From Candidatus Omnitrophota bacterium (lineage in GTDB: Bacteria; Omnitrophota; Omnitrophia; Omnitrophales; Aquincolibacteriaceae): a DNA stretch of 64,000 bases. This document shows, piece by piece, positions 1-10,262 of the stretch. Both the position numbers and the translations under genes were made by a program. Location of the stretch: NCBI GenBank assembly GCA_903856085.1, contig CAIOAT010000029.1:3507-67506 (forward strand), read 5' to 3'. The notes beneath the pieces are model-generated. The model saw nothing but the letters and a program-made list of their open reading frames with translations, made no database searches and had not been told where the DNA came from. Each line of letters starts with the position of its first letter. The first letter of the stretch is position 1.

Positions 1-1
1 C

Positions 2-418
2 CCGGACAATAAGATCGTAGGCCTCATTCTCGCCCCGCAGGACTCTGTGATCGTTCGTGATGTTTAAGACAGATAATCCCTTCGGATCCACCTCTTCCAG
101 CCTCTTTACTTTAACCGGCTGCCGAGCATTATCTATTTTTAAAAAGATACCCTTTAGATTTATATACTTGCTCCAGGGAACATCGAGCCTTCTTCCAAAA
201 TTATGCCCAGGGCTTAGCATGGGCCGGGAAACCAGAAGGGTCCTGCGCAGAAAGAAGGCCTCCTGGGCGTGCAATCCGAGCGCCCATTTCAAATGGTTCA
301 TCCCGAACATGTTGGTCGCTTTCACATATAAATATTTTTCGCAACCGCTTTCAGGCAACTTTTGCGCGGCTCGAAAATCTTCGGGGGAATATGCGCCGTC
401 TTTTGCATCAGAATTCAT
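2..418 (-). CDS. Hypothetical protein, partial. The start codon is at 418 on the minus strand and the gene runs off the window edge.
   Basis: My own reverse-complement translation gives an uninterrupted frame from ATG at 418-416 to position 2 (MNSDAKDGAYSPEDFRAAQKLPESGCEKYLYVKATNMFGMNHLKWALGLHAQEAFF...). It reads like protein and has the same orientation as the upstream operon. The plus-strand ORF 57..422 in the track is low-complexity and is probably its antisense shadow. Confidence 0.4.
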   Translation of the reverse strand, partial: MNSDAKDGAYSPEDFRAAQKLPESGCEKYLYVKATNMFGMNHLKWALGLHAQEAFFLRRTLLVSRPMLSPGHNFGRRLDVPWSKYINLKGIFLKIDNARQPVKVKRLEEVDPKGLSVLNITNDHRVLRGENEAYDLIVR

Positions 419-640
419 TTAGATTACCCCGCTTCGTCCCAATCACCCCAGCCTCGTTTCTTTCTGGCACGATAAAGAAAGTAATAGCCTCAACGCCTGC
501 TCCATCTGTCTTAATACCGCCTCGCTCAAGATCAGGATAATGATCCAGATGTTGCTGCCGAACATTCCCGGCCAAGACGCAGCGAACAACTCTTCGTAGA
601 AAAACCGTTATAGCGCTACAACCGACAGATATCTTTCGAC
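409..640 (-). pseudogene. Degenerate orphan copy of the 'YPDL...GI.T...HY..G..EGR' C-terminal module, with no start codon.
   Basis: The minus-strand frame translates as ...RQQHLDHYPDLERGGIKTDGAGVEAITFFIVPERNEAGVIGTKRGNLNEF* with no upstream ATG. The DNA at about 500-590 aligns at roughly 75% identity to 1510-1600, which encodes the intact module at the C-terminus of the 693-aa glycosyltransferase. Confidence 0.45.
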
Positions 641-1345
641 ATAATGAAGGCGTTCGGGAAACTCGCTTTTAATATATTCTCTCCAACCCGGAAGAACTTT
701 TGGATCGCATTGGCGCTTGTGAAAGTGGGGATCTTCCCCGCTCACCGAACCTGACCATTCACGCCCGCGGGCCGTTCTGCTTAGTTGAACAAGGCTGTCA
801 TATTGTCGCATAAACAAACCGACTCTTCTCAGCGAGATCCCCAGAAACTTTAAAAGCCTTTCGATCTCGTCTTGGGGAGTCGCCAGCAGGTCTTCGTAAT
901 AAACAAGGTGCTTCTTGCCCCCGTAATCATGAAATTTCTGAACCAATAACATGTAATGGTTAAGATCCTGTTTAAGCACCTTTCCTTTATGCCTGGTGAT
1001 GCATTCGAAGGGATCCCTTAATATCAAGATCAACCGCACCGCCTGCCCCCGGCGCTTTACTTGAGAATCAAAATATTCGCAGTAATGGCCCTTTCTGAGG
1101 ATCGGCATTTTGAAAGCTGCGACATGGCTCAAGGGGTTTTTGGTCGAAGAGAACTGGTTCTTGTGGATCGGCGCATCTCTTAAATTACCCTTAACCCCCA
1201 GCGTGGGTCTCCCCGAAAACCATTCGACAATAAATCGGACCCAATGATTCCCGCTCCTGGGATAGGAAATGAGAAATGTCTCTGTGTGCTCATAAACCCA
1301 TTCGTTAAGAAGGCCCTTCAGTTTTGGCACAATACCGCTTATCAT
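608..1345 (-). CDS. PAPS-dependent sulfotransferase
   Basis: A 5'-phosphosulfate-binding-type loop, SYPRSGNHW, is near the N-terminus. A 3'-phosphate-binding-type region, ILILRDPFECITRH, follows. It is the last complete gene of the cysD-cysNC operon. Confidence 0.72.
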   Translation of the reverse strand: MISGIVPKLKGLLNEWVYEHTETFLISYPRSGNHWVRFIVEWFSGRPTLGVKGNLRDAPIHKNQFSSTKNPLSHVAAFKMPILRKGHYCEYFDSQVKRRGQAVRLILILRDPFECITRHKGKVLKQDLNHYMLLVQKFHDYGGKKHLVYYEDLLATPQDEIERLLKFLGISLRRVGLFMRQYDSLVQLSRTARGREWSGSVSGEDPHFHKRQCDPKVLPGWREYIKSEFPERLHYVERYLSVVAL

Positions 1346-1426
1346 AAACCCCTCTCAGACCTCCCGCTGCTTCCTTTGCCAGCGAAAAGGCCTTCCGACG
1401 AATAAAAGTCGCCCTTGCGCCAGAGC

Positions 1427-3508
1427 TCATCCGGATGACCGCTCTCCGTCCAAACTCCCCCAGACCCGTCCCTCTCGGGCGCCAGAAAAAAAATAATGCC
1501 TAAACGCCTGGTTCTGTGTCTGAATACCGCCGCGCACAAGATCGGGATAACGATCGATATACTGCTGCCAGGCATTTTCATCCAAGGCCCGGGGCATAAC
1601 AATCTGTGGGTAGGCCTCACTGAATTTTTCTTTGAGGTCCAGGATCAAAGCGCGTCGTTTTTTATCATCTTCGGCTCCCATTTCCCGGGAGGCAAATTCG
1701 ACGAGATGATAAAACGCTAGATTTAGTTTTGCTTTTTGGTTTGGATGTTGATTTATGCTTAAGGAAACCCCCCAAAAGAACAACTCCCGTAGTTCTGGAT
1801 ATTTCTTCAAGAAGGGACGCATTTGACGAAATATGTTCTTCACGGGATTCGTAACCAGAAGCATGCTTTTCTCCGTTTTACGGTAATAGACCAATTCCTT
1901 GGGGACCAGCTCGACCCTGTATCCTTGCAAAAGAAACGTATTGAAAAGTTCAATGTCCTCATGCCCAAGACCATGATCCTCCGTGAACCCTCCGGCTTTA
2001 AGAAGCGACGATTTTTTCACGAGACAATTCGCATCCCCGACAAAATTATGTAAAACTCCAAGGCTGACAGGACCTCCCAGGGGGGAGTGCATGTTCCCGA
2101 CAAATCGAATAACGTTCCTCGTGATGTCCTGGAAAAACTTTAGTTGACAGACGTAGGCATCCGCCTGCGTTCTCGCGGCCGCCTGCTGAAAATCCGCGAT
2201 GCAGGTATCGGCCATGACGTTGTCATCGTCCAAAAACAAAAGGTATGGATTTTGGCTGCGCCGGCTTTCATAGTTGCGGGCAGCACCGAGATAGCCGTGG
2301 GTTTTATAGAATATTTTCCACCGTCTTTTCTTGAACTCCGGCTCCAGAGATTTCAGATAAGCCAGCGAATCGGGTTCACAACTTCCATCGTCGCAGAGAA
2401 TGACCTCGAAGTTTTTTGGGGCCTGGCGGTATAAAGACTCCACGGCATCTTTTAACATGAGACCGCGATTATAGTGCGTCAGACAGACCGAAACGGCTGG
2501 CAATGACTTAACCTTCACTGAGGTCCGGACTGGCGTGTCGCGCAAAAGGTCCGCCCAGGAACTCCCCGACCCAATATCATGCTTGGTGTGCTGGAAAGCG
2601 ATCGTGTTGCGGGTCAGAATTTCTTTCAGAGCCATCTCCAATATCACGGGATTGTTCAGCGCCGTGAGACGCTTCCACCGATTCTTCCCCAAATGTTCCC
2701 AGTCGCTAAAGTGGGGTATTTTTTTTCGAACCAAGACCGCTTGCTCAAACGGAAATTCTGATGAGCGGTTGAGGCAAATGAGCACCCCCCCCTTTACGGA
2801 CGCCTGGCGTTTCGCGCAGGCTAAAAAGGTCGTTTGCTCCTTGACCAGGATCTCGCGAAACTTCTTCTTTTCTCTCAGAATTCTCACCATTCTTTGCAGC
2901 GACCGCGGTAGCGGGGCCGGTGCGCCAAACATCAGCCTTAACGAGAGGTTGTGCGTTAAATCGTCGTCCATCTGCCCAAGCACGGCCAGAATGGAAGAAA
3001 CGCCGTACGAATTATCATAATGCCCCCACACGCCAAGCTCAGACAGCTTCTCAGGGTTATTTTTATTTGACGGCAGAACCGGGCACTGCCCGGAGGGGTC
3101 GATAATGACGGGACGGCTCTTGCGTAAACCGACAGCCCCTGCAAACATGGGCGTTACAAGAAAATCGGCTTGCGCTCTTGAGCGTTCCTCCATAAACAAT
3201 GATGCGGCCTCATGAACCGAGGTTAAAAGGGTGCCCTCACCTTGAAATTCATCAATGCGATCGACCAGCCCCAACACGATGATCTGTGTATCCTGAAAAT
3301 GCAGCCCGACCCGTTTGGCCTGAATGGCGATATCCCCCAGTCCGGTCAGATCCGCAAAAATAAGATGCGAGTATTTGCGGGTTTTGAGAAACTCGAAAAC
3401 TGCATAACTTTTATCCTGGGCAAACGCAGAGTGAGGGGCCGGCGACACAAAGACTTGCTTAAGCTTGTCCCCGAACAGGCCCGGAGGGACTTCCCCGAAG
3501 GTGACCAA
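1427..3508 (-). CDS. Large two-domain glycosyltransferase with a family-2 GT domain in the C-terminal half, a possible GT-B-like N-terminal half, and a C-terminal ~40-aa YPDL/HY..G..EGR module.
   Basis: The GT2 signature is SVCLTHYNRGLMLKDAVESLYRQAPKNFEVILCDDGS followed by a DxD-type LFLDDDN. The N-terminal ~330 aa are unassigned. The C-terminus, NAWQQYIDRYPDLVRGGIQTQNQAFRHYFFSGAREGRVWG, matches the C-terminus of the 3746..4735 protein. Confidence 0.7.
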   Translation of the reverse strand: MVTFGEVPPGLFGDKLKQVFVSPAPHSAFAQDKSYAVFEFLKTRKYSHLIFADLTGLGDIAIQAKRVGLHFQDTQIIVLGLVDRIDEFQGEGTLLTSVHEAASLFMEERSRAQADFLVTPMFAGAVGLRKSRPVIIDPSGQCPVLPSNKNNPEKLSELGVWGHYDNSYGVSSILAVLGQMDDDLTHNLSLRLMFGAPAPLPRSLQRMVRILREKKKFREILVKEQTTFLACAKRQASVKGGVLICLNRSSEFPFEQAVLVRKKIPHFSDWEHLGKNRWKRLTALNNPVILEMALKEILTRNTIAFQHTKHDIGSGSSWADLLRDTPVRTSVKVKSLPAVSVCLTHYNRGLMLKDAVESLYRQAPKNFEVILCDDGSCEPDSLAYLKSLEPEFKKRRWKIFYKTHGYLGAARNYESRRSQNPYLLFLDDDNVMADTCIADFQQAAARTQADAYVCQLKFFQDITRNVIRFVGNMHSPLGGPVSLGVLHNFVGDANCLVKKSSLLKAGGFTEDHGLGHEDIELFNTFLLQGYRVELVPKELVYYRKTEKSMLLVTNPVKNIFRQMRPFLKKYPELRELFFWGVSLSINQHPNQKAKLNLAFYHLVEFASREMGAEDDKKRRALILDLKEKFSEAYPQIVMPRALDENAWQQYIDRYPDLVRGGIQTQNQAFRHYFFSGAREGRVWGSLDGERSSG

Positions 3509-3745
3509 ATCTATCTCATGCCCAAGGGATTGCAGGGAATTCGCGTACGCACAAAAAAGAAGACCCCTGCGGTGGCTCTCCCAACCCGTACCTTCAAAAG
3601 GACAAATGACCGCCAGCTTCAGAAATGCTCCTTCGTTCTTTTATGCCCGATCAGTGTATGAGGGAAAATCTCATGGCGCCCGATTCTAAAACTGTTCTTT
3701 CCCCGCCGAAGCACCTCCTGGGCGCCTCTTGCTAGAAGCGGCTGA

Positions 3746-4735
3746 TCAATAATTTATTCTCCGCCCTTCCTTTTTACCATGTGTTAAGTAATGCTTCCAG
3801 GCTTTTTCTCTCGTATTGATCCCTGCTTTTATCAGATCAGGATATTCCCTGACATAAAATTCCCAATCAAAATCCACCGTCGCCGAAGGTCTCTCTCCCT
3901 CCGCATTGCCTCCCTTTTTCATCCGAGGCGAAAAGAAAAAATTAATCCCCGGAAGACTCTTGAAGCAATGCCGCGCCCTTTGCCAAATCTGGTAACAGGG
4001 GTTTTCATGCCGAGAACAGTAAAGGCAAAAAAGCCAATAGGCAACGCGGTTCCGCTCAAGCCGGATGTATTCCCGAACCAAGGCTTCCTTTTGTTCATCG
4101 GACTGTTTTTGCAAAGCGGTCGTCATCCTGACCAAGCCATCCCTGGGGACAGAAAGAAAATCGAGCACGCGCCCTACCTCCCGCTCCCGGTCAGAAACAA
4201 GATCCTCAAAATAGACTTCGAGATAGTTCCGCCCGTCAGCTTTGAGAATTTTTTTCCAGTTGGCTTCCTCGCGCCTCAGCATGGTAATATCCCGAAAAAT
4301 ATCCTCTTTCTTGATAGAAGATGCCTTTTTCTTCGGAGCCCTGCCGCTGGTGTTCAGCCACTCTGTGGTTTCTTTGGCTCTTGCAAAAGAGACCGCCTGT
4401 CGAACTTTGTCCCGCCTCAGAACCAATATGATCCCCGCATTTTCGGAAAAAAAACGGAACGCCTCCTGGACTGACGTCAGACGACTGTCTGCACGTTTTG
4501 ACTGAACAAGTTCTTTGAGATGTCCATAGTGGACCTTGAAACCTAACGGTTTTTCTCTTGGAGATTGCAATGCCGCGAGCAGGGGGGCGGGCGAACGATT
4601 GTTCTGCAAAGGCTCGTAATGGCCAAGATCCGTTTGAAAAAGGGTGACGGCGCCAGTGCTCTCAAGCAGGCTGCATAATAGCGTGCTCCCCGTCCTGCCG
4701 GATGAGCAAACAATAAAACGATCGTATTTCTTCAT
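3746..4735 (-). CDS. Sulfotransferase (Stf0-like P-loop type) carrying the C-terminal YPDL/HY..G..EGR module.
   Basis: The N-terminus has IVCSSGRTGSTLLCSLLESTG, a PAPS 5'-PSB loop. ILVLRRDKVRQAVS looks like a 3'-phosphate-binding motif. The C-terminus is FDWEFYVREYPDLIKAGINTREKAWKHYLTHGKKEGRRINY. Confidence 0.68.
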   Translation of the reverse strand: MKKYDRFIVCSSGRTGSTLLCSLLESTGAVTLFQTDLGHYEPLQNNRSPAPLLAALQSPREKPLGFKVHYGHLKELVQSKRADSRLTSVQEAFRFFSENAGIILVLRRDKVRQAVSFARAKETTEWLNTSGRAPKKKASSIKKEDIFRDITMLRREEANWKKILKADGRNYLEVYFEDLVSDREREVGRVLDFLSVPRDGLVRMTTALQKQSDEQKEALVREYIRLERNRVAYWLFCLYCSRHENPCYQIWQRARHCFKSLPGINFFFSPRMKKGGNAEGERPSATVDFDWEFYVREYPDLIKAGINTREKAWKHYLTHGKKEGRRINY

Positions 4736-7842: not shown

Positions 7843-7936
7843 TGGCGGAGGGGGGGGGATTTGAACCCCCGGTGACGCTTTCGCGCCACATCGGTTTAGC
7901 AAACCGACGCACTAAGCCGGGCTATGCGACCCCTCC
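7843..7936 (-). tRNA. tRNA-Ser (anticodon GCU), class II with a long variable arm and encoded CCA.
   Basis: The minus strand reads GGAGGGGTCGCATAGCCCGGCTTAGTGCGTCGGTTTGCTAAACCGATGTGGCGCGAAAGCGTCACCGGGGGTTCAAATCCCCCCCCCTCCGCCA. The acceptor pairs GGAGGGG with CCCCTCC. The anticodon arm is TCGGT / loop TTGCTAA / ACCGA, giving anticodon GCT. The T-loop is GGGGG TTCAAAT CCCCC, followed by discriminator G and CCA. Confidence 0.85.
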
Positions 7937-8323: not shown

Positions 8324-9130
8324 CTAAAGACTAAGCCGTTTAGTTAATAGCGGTACGAATCGCTGGATGGTCACATCGACCTCATCATTCCGATCGAGAT
8401 TTTTAAAGAACTGCTTCGGCCTGAGGGCTTTAACGGTTGCCCTTCCACGCAAACGCTTCCTTTCGCTTTCCTGAAGAGATTTCACAATATAGTGATTGAT
8501 GCGCAACTTCGCCGCCTTGGGCGACACCACGGCCCCGAATAAATTTTTCCGTGTCGGCGAAATAAAATTCTTGTCCTCATCGACAGGGCAGGCCTCCCCC
8601 TGATAGAAAAAAGCATGCGCATTGGCACATCCCAGAGCTGAGGATGTGTGAAGGATTGTTTTAATGTGGGAGTTAATCATGAATTCCAGCGGAGCTCGGC
8701 GGGTAAAGTTCTTGATCACAAGACCCCCGGGGTTCCTCGCATGGCCAGAGCTGCCGAAGATCAGCCAGTTGACAACGACGCCACAGAACGCCTCGTAGTC
8801 TCGCAAGACGTGGCAAAGACTATCCTGTTCGGTTCCAAAAAGAAATTCGTCTAAATCGATGAAAGCGATCCAGTGCGCTGCCGCGGAAAAATGTTTGAGA
8901 CAGTGGTTATAGGCCTGCACTTGGCCGGGGTGGATCGGCCAATCCACGAGCACCACTTCCCCCTTCTTCAGATAAGGACCCAATACTTCGCGGGTGTTGT
9001 CACGACTACCATTGTCATAAAGGTAAAAACGCCCAACACCGACGATCTTGTGAAACTCGATCCATTCCCGAAGATACGGCCCTTCATCCTTTATGGTGGC
9101 ACAAATTGCCAAGTAGTCGCGCTTTTCCAT
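8324..9130 (-). CDS. Glycosyltransferase, GT92/DUF23-like
   Basis: The N-terminus LAICATIKDEGPYLREWIEFHKIVGVGRFYLYDNGSRDNT fits the GT92 / Glyco_transf_92 pattern. The rest shows GT-A-fold features. Confidence 0.58.
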   Translation of the reverse strand: MEKRDYLAICATIKDEGPYLREWIEFHKIVGVGRFYLYDNGSRDNTREVLGPYLKKGEVVLVDWPIHPGQVQAYNHCLKHFSAAAHWIAFIDLDEFLFGTEQDSLCHVLRDYEAFCGVVVNWLIFGSSGHARNPGGLVIKNFTRRAPLEFMINSHIKTILHTSSALGCANAHAFFYQGEACPVDEDKNFISPTRKNLFGAVVSPKAAKLRINHYIVKSLQESERKRLRGRATVKALRPKQFFKNLDRNDEVDVTIQRFVPLLTKRLSL

Positions 9131-10128: not shown

Positions 10129-10171
10129 AAATAATGCGGTCGCCTTTATTTTAATTTGGCGGAAAAGATGG

Positions 10172-10262
10172 CGGAGAGGGCGAGATTCGAACTCGCGAGA
10201 CCTTGTGAGTCTACCCGCTTTCCAGGCGAGCGCACTAGACCAGGCTATGCGACCTCTCCATA
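10172..10262 (-). tRNA. tRNA-Ser (anticodon GGA), class II with encoded CCA.
   Basis: The minus strand reads GGAGAGGTCGCATAGCCTGGTCTAGTGCGCTCGCCTGGAAAGCGGGTAGACTCACAAGGTCTCGCGAGTTCGAATCTCGCCCTCTCCGCCA. The anticodon arm is CTCGC / loop CTGGAAA / GCGGG, giving anticodon GGA. The T-loop is GCGAG TTCGAAT CTCGC. The 5' half is near-identical to the tRNA at 7843..7936. Confidence 0.85.

What the first reader, a model, noticed from the sequence alone, without database searches (positions are those of the whole stretch)
409..4735. Shared C-terminal module on the sulfotransferase and glycosyltransferase, with a decayed third copy in an intergenic region
The 329-aa sulfotransferase ends ...EFYVREYPDLIKAGINTREKAWKHYLTHGKKEGRRINY. 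The 693-aa glycosyltransferase ends ...QQYIDRYPDLVRGGIQTQNQAFRHYFFSGAREGRVWG. The shared pattern is Y(V/I)xxYPDL(I/V)xxGIxTxxxAxxHYxxxGxxEGR. A third copy survives only as DNA and as a stop-terminated reading frame with no ATG (...HLDHYPDLERGGIKTDGAGVEAITFFIVPERNEAGVIGT*) in the spacer at 420-620, between the last sulfotransferase and the unknown gene. Its nucleotide sequence at about 500-590 aligns at roughly 75% to 1510-1600. The module therefore looks portable: it has been appended to two different catalytic domains and recombined or decayed within the locus. It could be a docking, localisation or substrate-carrier recognition tag that coordinates glycosylation with sulfation.
Basis: seen in the sequence. 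Interest (0 to 1): 0.7.

Follow-up and report, generated by a model that had tools for sequence, protein, structure and literature searches.

The report
Uncurated 40-residue repeat on glycan enzymes
Two enzymes of a sulfated-sugar gene cluster each end in one copy of a small helical module that belongs to a very large family with no curated database model, found on sugar- and cell-wall-modifying enzymes of bacteria and giant viruses, and the "third copy" is a dead leftover of the glycosyltransferase gene's tail.

Summary
The sulfotransferase ST1 (3746-4735, minus strand) and the GT2 glycosyltransferase (1427-3508, minus strand) share a C-terminal module of about 40 residues (BLASTP 42% identity over 43 aa, E=5e-14). 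The spacer 419-607 holds a third copy, whose DNA matches the GT 3' end far above shuffled controls.

The module is not special to this locus. A profile of it finds 8,579 protein clusters, with up to 18 matched stretches per protein. It has no Pfam, NCBIfam or PDB counterpart. AlphaFold predicts an autonomous unit of three short helices, and arrays behave like beads on a string.

Carriers are bacterial peptidoglycan hydrolases, RTX proteins and glycosyltransferases. They also include giant-virus glycosyltransferases, methyltransferases and sugar-nucleotide enzymes.

The third copy is a pseudogenised duplicate of the GT tail. It has two one-base insertions and a premature stop. Mismatches are spread evenly over codon positions, and family-invariant residues are lost. 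It ends at the same ATGA stop/start overlap as the GT gene. It never belonged to ST2, because ST2's homologues end where ST2 ends.

Function is inferred. I favour a glycan or polymer targeting module. Enzyme-to-enzyme docking is not excluded. Interest is moderate.

The parts
3746..4735 (-). ST1, a 329-aa Stf0-like sulfotransferase carrying one C-terminal module
   Evidence: ORF. Pfam PF09037 E=2.5e-18 and NCBIfam trehalose 2-sulfotransferase E=4e-18, below the equivalog cut-off. Homologues of the catalytic domain (P0003-P0017, 212-293 aa) cover only about two thirds of the query and lack the tail.
3749..3877 (-). ST1 module, an intact canonical copy (VDFDWEFYVREYPDLIKAGINTREKAWKHYLTHGKKEGRRINY)
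   Evidence: 71.8 bits, E=2.6e-21 against the family HMM built from 709 units. 71% identical to the N-terminal repeats of P0001/P0002.
1427..3508 (-). GT, a 693-aa protein with a GT2 domain at residues 340-465. The N-terminal ~330 aa have no Pfam match. One module lies near the C-terminus.
   Evidence: ORF. PF00535 E=1.8e-21.
1457..1585 (-). GT module, an intact but divergent copy (LDENAWQQYIDRYPDLVRGGIQTQNQAFRHYFFSGAREGRVWG), followed by 9 residues and the stop codon
   Evidence: 41.5 bits, E=7.6e-12 against the family HMM. AlphaFold2 with a 60-sequence alignment gives pLDDT 94.3 and helices 5-12, 14-18 and 24-35.
405..590 (-). Relic: a pseudogenised duplicate of the last ~58 codons of the GT gene, ending at the ATGA that holds the start codon of the next gene. 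It fills nearly all of the ST2-to-next-gene spacer (419-607).
   Evidence: Alignment score 108 vs 18.7 +/- 1.9 in shuffles. Two one-base insertions, a premature stop, 8 synonymous vs 30 non-synonymous codon differences, and mismatches of 16/17/17 at codon positions 1/2/3. After frame correction it is 60% identical to the GT module, its nearest relative. Only 9.7 bits against the family HMM.
1417..1600 (-). Parent copy of the direct repeat: the GT 3' end plus the ATGA and a few bases beyond it
   Evidence: start-to-start spacing 1010 nt.
608..1345 (-). ST2, a 245-aa sulfotransferase that lies between the two repeat copies. It is complete and has no module.
   Evidence: PF00685 E=3.3e-7. The homologues read end at the same ...YLxRY motif.
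1..418 (-). 5' part of a 307-aa gene of unknown family (it contains an HVRRGDK motif). Its ATG overlaps the former stop codon of the relic (ATGA).
   Evidence: No Pfam match.
1383..1426 (-). Possible decayed duplicate of the 5' end of the 307-aa gene, downstream of the GT stop. Uncertain.
   Evidence: The contiguous alignment continues past the ATGA, but this stretch alone is not significant: 163 of 2000 shuffles score at least as high. A related strain carries an 8-bp tandem duplication here, which is consistent with the stretch being non-coding.

Best explanation
The finding combines two things.

(1) The module. The C-terminal ~40 residues of ST1 and of the GT are single copies of a very widespread repeat that has no curated model. 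Its consensus is F-D-W-x2-Y-[ILV]-x2-[YN]-x-D-L-x(2-4)-I-x-T-x3-A-x2-H-[WYF]-x3-G-x2-E-G-R. Each unit is predicted to fold on its own into a tiny domain of three short helices. In arrays of up to 18 matched stretches the units are strung together without a fixed mutual orientation.

The unit has been shuffled onto many catalytic domains that make, decorate or cut glycans and cell-envelope polymers. I infer that it is a non-catalytic targeting module that holds the enzyme on its glycan or polymer substrate or product. In this locus that would be the nascent glycan that gets glycosylated and sulfated. This step is inferred, not shown.

The two copies here were acquired separately. They are not each other's closest relatives.

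(2) The third copy. It is a dead fragment, not a module in use. It is a duplicate of the GT gene's last ~58 codons, ending at the same ATGA stop/start overlap. It lies immediately downstream of ST2, so that ST2 is bracketed by the two repeat copies.

The most likely history is that the GT gene was once followed directly by the 307-aa gene, with translational coupling through ATGA. ST2 was then inserted with duplication of the junction. A less likely alternative is that a GT paralogue was deleted down to its tail.

The upstream copy stayed coding because it belongs to the GT gene. The downstream copy lost its frame. It probably persists because it still supplies the ribosome-binding region and start context of the 307-aa gene (inferred).
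For: Family membership:
- A profile of 5 units finds 8,579 representatives of 50%-identity clusters at E<=1e-3 and 2,698 at E<=1e-10, with up to 18 matched stretches per protein.
- The consensus and invariant positions come from 709 units.
- The window copies score 71.8 and 41.5 bits.

No curated model and no solved relative:
- Pfam and NCBIfam give nothing for the modules or for arrays.
- There are only sub-threshold DUF6123 hits on some arrays.

Fold:
- Single unit: pLDDT 94.3 with three helices.
- Four-unit array: pLDDT 85.7 but pTM 0.48, with confidence dips at the linkers.

Partner domains:
- Among 79 of the top carriers: GT2, TylF and Methyltransf_24 methyltransferases, DUF5672, GT25, GT15, RgpF, Amidase_3, YkuD, and cadherin plus RTX.
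- Among 107 bacterial ORFs: RTX 10, YkuD 7, Amidase_3 6, CAP 5, GDSL 4, glucosaminidase 4, VanW 3, GT2 3, GT1 3, plus GH25 and VanY.
- In giant viruses: glycosyltransferases, DUF5672, an FkbM methyltransferase, a dTDP-sugar reductase, AlgX/AlgJ and an O-fucosyltransferase-family protein. P0002 lies on a giant-virus-like contig.

Taxonomic breadth: Lachnospiraceae, Azospirillum, Rhizobium, cyanobacteria, Collinsella, Desulfuromonas, Colwellia, Lysobacter and Archangiaceae.

Separate origin of the two intact copies.

Relic:
- Significance of the DNA similarity.
- Frame disruptions and the neutral substitution pattern.
- Nearest relative is the GT module.
- Identical in three other contigs.
- ST2 homologues lack the module and end where ST2 ends.
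- A related strain has the same 189-nt spacer with no gene called in it.
Against: Nothing here measures binding. The invariant D, H, E, R and aromatic residues could be purely structural.

The carriers span two compartments. About 77 of 107 bacterial carriers have an N-terminal hydrophobic segment by a crude hydropathy test. The window proteins and the giant-virus enzymes have none. A single common ligand is therefore not obvious.

Both carrier samples are biased. The top-150 list favours proteins with many repeats.

For the junction-duplication history, the similarity beyond the ATGA is not significant on its own. No relative with a GT-307 adjacency could be found. Insertion with duplication therefore cannot be separated from a deleted paralogue.
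Confidence: 0.6

Rival explanations
1. Docking tag. The single modules on the GT and on ST1 pair with each other, or with a common scaffold. This would bring glycosylation and sulfation together in one complex.
For: Both carriers are soluble cytoplasmic enzymes of one pathway, with no predicted signal or transmembrane segment, and each has exactly one copy. Elsewhere units occur side by side in arrays, so unit-to-unit contacts are conceivable.
Against: In a four-unit array AlphaFold gives no fixed packing between units (pTM 0.48, low confidence at the linkers). ST2 and the other glycosyltransferase-like genes of the locus that lie in the window lack the module. Most bacterial carriers are exported single enzymes such as amidases, YkuD and RTX proteins. 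A pathway-specific docking role makes little sense for those. The two copies are only 42-46% identical and have separate origins.
Confidence: 0.2
2. The third copy is the real C-terminus of ST2 and only looks broken. The cause would be sequencing error or programmed frameshifting, so that ST2 would also carry the module.
For: The fragment starts only about 17 nt after the ST2 stop codon and lies on the same strand.
Against: Reaching the end of the module would need read-through of the TAA, a frame change into the module frame, and two further single-base corrections. The sequence is identical in three contigs from other samples. Family-invariant residues are substituted (Y9H, G35R, E38K) and mismatches are spread evenly over codon positions. 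The ST2 homologues that were read all end at the same ...YLxRY motif without a module.
Confidence: 0.03
3. The module is a structural or regulatory extension of the catalytic domains, for example an oligomerisation element or a lid, and not a targeting domain.
For: Small helical appendages often mediate dimerisation. The invariant charged residues could form salt bridges. No ligand has been demonstrated.
Against: The module occurs on more than 40 unrelated Pfam domains, at either terminus, in 1 to 18 copies. It is predicted to fold on its own. A role tied to one catalytic fold is therefore unlikely. Generic self-association is not excluded.
Confidence: 0.15
4. The resemblance is a chance or convergent short motif without common descent.
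For: The motif is short, and the two intact copies share no DNA similarity.
Against: BLASTP E=5e-14. Family HMM E=2.6e-21 and 7.6e-12. There are thousands of homologous units with the same spacing of invariant residues.
Confidence: 0.01

Closest known systems
CW_7 (Cpl-7) cell-wall-binding repeats of pneumococcal phage lysozyme. From my own knowledge these are ~42-48-aa three-helix units in tandem that bind peptidoglycan.
   Same: The unit size is similar and the fold is all-helical with three helices. The units are autonomous and occur in tandem. They are attached to peptidoglycan hydrolases. The role is non-catalytic targeting, which is what I infer for this module.
PG_binding_1 (PF01471), a three-helix peptidoglycan-binding domain found on YkuD, amidases, VanY and M10 peptidases (from my own knowledge)
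   Same: The partner-domain spectrum among bacterial carriers is strikingly similar: YkuD, Amidase_3, VanY and Peptidase_M10. It is also a small helical domain.
   Different: No profile or fold match. The unit here is shorter (~40 aa) and has different conserved positions.
Pfam DUF6123 (PF19618)
   Same: It is the only Pfam model that touches the repeat itself: 7 of 79 carriers at E<=1e-3, and P0174 residues 521-560 align to profile positions 29-68.
   Different: The one hit inspected individually scores 26.6 bits against a cut-off of 27. The window modules give no hit at E<=10. DUF6123 itself has no known function, and no paper in the library mentions it.
Carbohydrate-binding modules (CBMs) and other accessory repeats of carbohydrate-active enzymes, as a general class
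   Same: Portable, non-catalytic, variable in copy number, and fused to enzymes that build or cut glycans.
   Different: Classical CBMs are mostly beta-sandwich domains on secreted hydrolases. This is a 40-residue helical unit that also occurs on cytoplasmic transferases. Binding has not been shown.

Membership tests
FDW/YxDL/H[WY]xxxGxxEGR ~40-aa repeat family (no curated model; defined here by profile) | Significant match to a profile built from independent units | tested here: met
   ST1 71.8 bits (E=2.6e-21) and GT 41.5 bits (E=7.6e-12) against an HMM of 709 units. The relic reaches only 9.7 bits (E=0.066).
FDW/YxDL/H[WY]xxxGxxEGR ~40-aa repeat family (no curated model; defined here by profile) | The near-invariant positions Y9, D15, L16, A27, H30, G35, E38 and R40 are present with family spacing | tested here: met
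   All are present in both intact copies. The GT copy lacks F4 and D5 (it has N and A there). In the frame-corrected relic, Y9 is H, G35 is R and E38 is K.
FDW/YxDL/H[WY]xxxGxxEGR ~40-aa repeat family (no curated model; defined here by profile) | Autonomous small helical fold | tested here: met
   Prediction only. The GT module gives pLDDT 94.3 with three helices. A four-unit array gives pLDDT 85.7 and pTM 0.48.
FDW/YxDL/H[WY]xxxGxxEGR ~40-aa repeat family (no curated model; defined here by profile) | Binding to a glycan, polymer or protein ligand | not testable with these tools
   Needs biochemistry. Only the partner-domain spectrum is available.
Pfam DUF6123 (PF19618) | Score at or above the gathering threshold (27 bits) | tested here: not met
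   No hit for the window modules at E<=10. The one carrier hit inspected individually scores 26.6 bits.
Known cell-wall-binding helical repeats (CW_7, PG_binding_1) | Profile match or fold match to solved members | tested here: not met
Gene relic / pseudogene fragment (third copy) | Significant DNA similarity to an intact parent gene | tested here: met
   Score 108 vs 18.7 +/- 1.9 in shuffles. Independent detection by the repeat finder.
Gene relic / pseudogene fragment (third copy) | Disrupted reading frame and loss of coding constraint | tested here: met
   Two one-base insertions and a premature stop. Mismatches of 16/17/17 at codon positions 1/2/3. 8 synonymous vs 30 non-synonymous codon differences. 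No ATG.
Gene relic / pseudogene fragment (third copy) | The disruptions are real and not assembly error | tested here: met
   Identical sequence in three contigs from other samples. A variant strain has the same spacer length with no gene called in it.
Gene relic / pseudogene fragment (third copy) | Not transcribed or translated as a product | not testable with these tools
   No expression data. There is no promoter-like or terminator-like site in the spacer, and the RNA fold is no more stable than shuffles (z=+1.96).
Stf0-type sulfotransferase (PF09037), for ST1 | Pfam match above the gathering score | tested here: met
   66.9 bits against a cut-off of 22. It is not the trehalose 2-sulfotransferase equivalog: 65.6 bits against a cut-off of 400.
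GT2 glycosyltransferase (PF00535), for the GT | Pfam match above the gathering score | tested here: met
   77.2 bits against a cut-off of 23.3, at residues 340-465.

The most novel reading that the evidence does not exclude
The ~40-residue FDW...YxDL...H[WY]xxxGxxEGR unit is a previously undescribed family of glycan or cell-envelope-polymer binding modules. It would be a helical, CBM-like domain shared by bacteria and giant viruses. It would tether both exported wall-remodelling enzymes and cytoplasmic glycosyltransferases, methyltransferases and sulfotransferases to their polymer substrates. In this locus it would mark the two enzymes that act processively on the growing sulfated glycan.
Probability: 0.3. 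Interest if true: 0.6.

Novelty: new variant of a known kind. Interest (0 to 1): 0.45.

Why it matters
If the module is a targeting or binding domain, it would annotate a region that currently has no curated model in thousands of proteins. These include peptidoglycan hydrolases of gut Lachnospiraceae, RTX proteins of Azospirillum and Rhizobium, and much of the glycosylation machinery of Klosneuvirinae and Mimiviridae. It would also give a handle on how soluble transferases find their polymer substrates.

Its presence on both bacterial and giant-virus glycan enzymes is also a marker of domain exchange between the two.

The relic is a small but clean example of how inserting a gene into an operon leaves a duplicated junction, with each half surviving only where it is still attached to a working gene.

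None of this overturns current views. The value lies in annotation and in generating hypotheses.

Tried and rejected
- The word-indexed protein search with the 2-sequence module alignment failed because the query was too short. The HMMER scan of representatives was used instead.
- Relatives of the GT were sought in GTDB genomes and in JGI metagenomes, and relatives of the 307-aa protein in metagenomes. The aim was to find a locus without ST2. None was found.
- A strain variant was found (P0194, P0200), but its contigs either stop before the spacer or have no DNA on file.
It was replaced by a fixed-spacing degenerate DNA pattern. By my own information-content estimate this pattern should give about one chance hit. 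HMM verification afterwards found 137 ORFs with the repeat in those loci.
- tblastn of the ST1 module against the phage and plasmid collections gave no match.
- Literature searches for the motif (GxxEGR), for DUF6123, for repeats on giant-virus glycosyltransferases, for novel cell-wall-binding repeats and for sulfated-EPS clusters found no description of this module.
- A structured RNA, promoter or terminator in the spacer was rejected.
- The relic as the lost tail of ST2 was rejected.
- A recent exchange of the module between ST1 and the GT within the locus was rejected.
Full report
ANATOMY. All the genes concerned are on the minus strand. Read along that strand the order is:
- cysD (7705-6800)
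- a cysN/cysC fusion (6800-4872)
- ST1, a 329-aa Stf0-like sulfotransferase (4735-3746)
- a 693-aa protein with a GT2 domain at residues 340-465 (3508-1427)
- ST2, a 245-aa sulfotransferase (1345-608)
- a 189-nt spacer (607-419)
- a 307-aa gene of unknown family that starts at 418 and leaves the window

These assignments rest. The locus makes PAPS and encodes two sulfotransferases and several glycosyltransferase-like proteins. It most likely builds a sulfated glycan, which is an inference from the gene content. The window matches a 379-kb metagenome scaffold.

The last 43 residues of ST1 align with a stretch of the GT that ends nine residues before its stop codon. The alignment shows 18/43 identities, E=5e-14.

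The spacer contains a third copy. Its local DNA alignment to the GT 3' end scores 108, against 18.7 +/- 1.9 for 200 shuffles. The repeat finder independently lists 507-590 vs 1517-1600 as the top repeat, at 74% identity without gaps. A more permissive alignment extends the repeat to 1600-1383 vs 590-372.

The ST1 module shares no DNA similarity with the other two. No further copy exists in the 64-kb window.

WHAT THE MODULE IS. Pfam and NCBIfam have no model for it.

The full-length ST1 search gave an unexpected top hit, a 538-aa protein (P0001/P0002). It matches only the last 12% of ST1, at 71% identity, and carries three such units in tandem at its N-terminus. It lies on a contig whose gene content looks like a giant virus.

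A profile of five units was run against 1.84 billion cluster representatives. It found 8,579 proteins at E<=1e-3, 2,698 at E<=1e-10 and 230 at E<=1e-30, with up to 18 matched stretches per protein.

From 709 units the consensus is F-D-W-x2-Y-[ILV]-x2-[YN]-x-D-L-x(2-4)-I-x-T-x3-A-x2-H-[WYF]-x3-G-x2-E-G-R. Positions Y9, H30, G35 and R40 are essentially invariant.

AlphaFold2 with a 60-unit alignment predicts the GT module with pLDDT 94.3, as three short helices. A four-unit array has well-folded units (mean pLDDT 85.7) but pTM 0.48, with confidence dips at the linkers. The units therefore behave as beads on a string and not as a solenoid.

WHO CARRIES IT. Among 79 of the top carriers the Pfam partners include:
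- GT2, Glyco_trans_1_2, GT25, GT15 and RgpF
- TylF and Methyltransf_24 methyltransferases
- DUF5672
- Amidase_3 and YkuD
- cadherin plus RTX

Most carriers have no other Pfam domain.

The organisms include Lachnospiraceae (among them Butyrivibrio), Azospirillum, Rhizobium, cyanobacteria, Collinsella, Faecalibacterium, Desulfuromonas, Colwellia, Lysobacter and Archangiaceae. An HMM check confirmed 137 ORFs with the repeat in those loci.

For 107 complete ORFs the partners are RTX repeats (10), YkuD (7), Amidase_3 (6), CAP (5), GDSL lipases (4), transglutaminase-like (4), glucosaminidase (4), VanW (3), GT2 (3) and GT1 (3), plus GH25, VanY and a subtilase. About 77 of the 107 have a hydrophobic N-terminal segment by a crude hydropathy test. 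The three window proteins have none.

In the viral structure library the array matches proteins of Fadolivirus, Hyperionvirus, Harvfovirus, Indivirus, Klosneuvirus, Bandra megavirus and a cedratvirus. Their annotations are glycosyltransferase, DUF5672, FkbM methyltransferase, dTDP-6-deoxy-L-lyxo-4-hexulose reductase, AlgX/AlgJ-like and O-fucosyltransferase family.

The common thread is enzymes that make, decorate or cut glycans and cell-envelope polymers.

WHAT IT PROBABLY DOES. The module folds on its own, sits at either terminus, varies in copy number and joins many unrelated catalytic folds. It is therefore an accessory module and not part of any active site.

The partner spectrum resembles that of known wall-binding modules. 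From my own knowledge these include PG_binding_1 on YkuD, amidases, VanY and M10 peptidases, and the three-helix CW_7 repeats on lysins.

My best reading is a module that binds a glycan or polymer and targets the enzyme to it. In this locus it would keep ST1 and the GT on the growing glycan. This is an inference, and I give it about 0.35-0.4 on its own.

It is weakened by three points: the lack of predicted unit-to-unit packing, the absence of the module from ST2 and the other glycosyltransferase-like genes of the locus within the window, and the many exported single-enzyme carriers.

The two intact copies are not a local duplication. ST1's module is 56-71% identical to foreign units but only about 46% identical to the GT module.

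WHAT THE THIRD COPY IS. Aligned codon by codon to the GT gene, the fragment shows:
- two single-base insertions
- a premature stop
- 8 synonymous against 30 non-synonymous codon differences
- mismatches spread 16/17/17 over codon positions 1/2/3

This is the neutral pattern expected of a pseudogene. After frame correction it reads ...NVRQQHLDHYPDLERGGIKTEEQALRHYFLYRARKKRGWG..., with Y9H, G35R and E38K. Its closest relative is the GT module, at 60% identity.

The fragment is identical in three contigs from other samples. A related strain has a spacer of the same length with no gene called in it.

It is not a lost tail of ST2. The 11 ST2 homologues that I read end at the same ...YLxRY(E/L) motif and none has the module.

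The fragment ends in the same ATGA as the GT gene. In the GT gene the TGA of that tetranucleotide is the stop codon. In the spacer its ATG is the start of the 307-aa gene. ST2 is thus bracketed by two direct-repeat copies of the GT tail, whose starts are 1010 nt apart.

The simplest history is that the GT gene was once followed directly by the 307-aa gene, with translational coupling. ST2 was then inserted with duplication of the junction. Each copy stayed intact only where it is still attached to a working gene.

The stretch downstream of the GT stop aligns with the 5' end of the 307-aa gene. That part is not significant on its own, since 163 of 2000 shuffles score at least as high. A related strain tolerates an 8-bp tandem duplication there.

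A deleted GT paralogue would leave the same relic and cannot be excluded, because no more distant relative of the locus was found.

The spacer has no promoter-like or terminator-like site and no unusual RNA structure. I infer that its 3' part persists because it supplies the ribosome-binding region of the 307-aa gene.

COMPARISON WITH KNOWN FAMILIES AND NOVELTY. The module works like an accessory targeting repeat, as CBMs, CW_7 and PG_binding_1 do. It is not a member of any of these by the sequence and fold tests run here. The only Pfam model that touches it, DUF6123, stays below threshold in the one hit inspected and is itself uncharacterised.

Five literature searches found no description of the module. 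That library does not cover subscription journals, so an earlier mention cannot be ruled out.

I rate it a new variant of a known kind: a large accessory-domain family with no curated model. The window's two copies are ordinary members of it, and the third copy is a relic.

VERDICT.

Confidence by claim:
- family membership of the two intact modules: about 0.95
- relic status of the third copy: about 0.9
- origin by junction duplication: about 0.55
- role as a glycan or polymer targeting module: about 0.35-0.4

Interest is 0.45.

Noticed in passing
window 1-418 (-); full gene at L001:13091-14014: The 307-aa gene downstream of the relic has no Pfam match. It contains HVRRGDK, which from my own knowledge resembles the nucleotide-sugar-binding motif of the fucosyltransferase superfamily. 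The next gene is DUF707-like, with a faint GT64 hit.
   Followed up: partly
window 7843-7936 (-) and 10169-10259 (-): Two tRNA-Ser genes (anticodons gct and gga). The gct gene lies between a GT92-like gene (8324-9130) and cysD, directly upstream of the block of PAPS-synthesis, sulfotransferase and GT genes. It could mark the boundary of an acquired island.
   Followed up: no
window 2519-3508 (-), GT residues 1-330: The N-terminal ~330 residues of the GT have no Pfam or NCBIfam match. No relative of the whole protein was found in the GTDB or JGI scans.
   Followed up: no
window ~3880-4060 (-), ST1 residues ~225-285: The linker between the sulfotransferase domain and the module is absent from Stf0 homologues. 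It contains a Cys/His-rich stretch, FCLYCSRHENPCYQIWQRARHC (C-x2-C-x6-C-x10-C), which could bind a metal.
   Followed up: no
ST2 (window 608-1345) vs P0200; GT vs P0194: Between two strains ST2 differs at 12 of 245 residues (4.9%). The adjacent GT differs at 5 of 693 residues (0.7%), not counting the start codon, plus a 6-residue insertion (DGISPN). ST2 therefore evolves faster or has been exchanged, which would fit its being the inserted gene.
   Followed up: partly
L005/L006:10001-11617 (P0002) and neighbouring genes: The closest relative of the ST1 module sits on a 54-90-kb contig that also carries GT25, DUF5672, an FtsH-like protease and an epimerase/2OG-Fe(II) oxygenase fusion. The protein itself is rich in K, N and I. 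This looks like a giant-virus glycosylation region.
   Followed up: partly
L127:8120-8135 vs window ~1395-1402: The related strain has an 8-bp tandem duplication (GTCGGAAG twice) in the GT-ST2 intergenic region, inside the listed 41-aa ORF 1305-1430. That ORF is therefore very unlikely to be a gene.
   Followed up: yes
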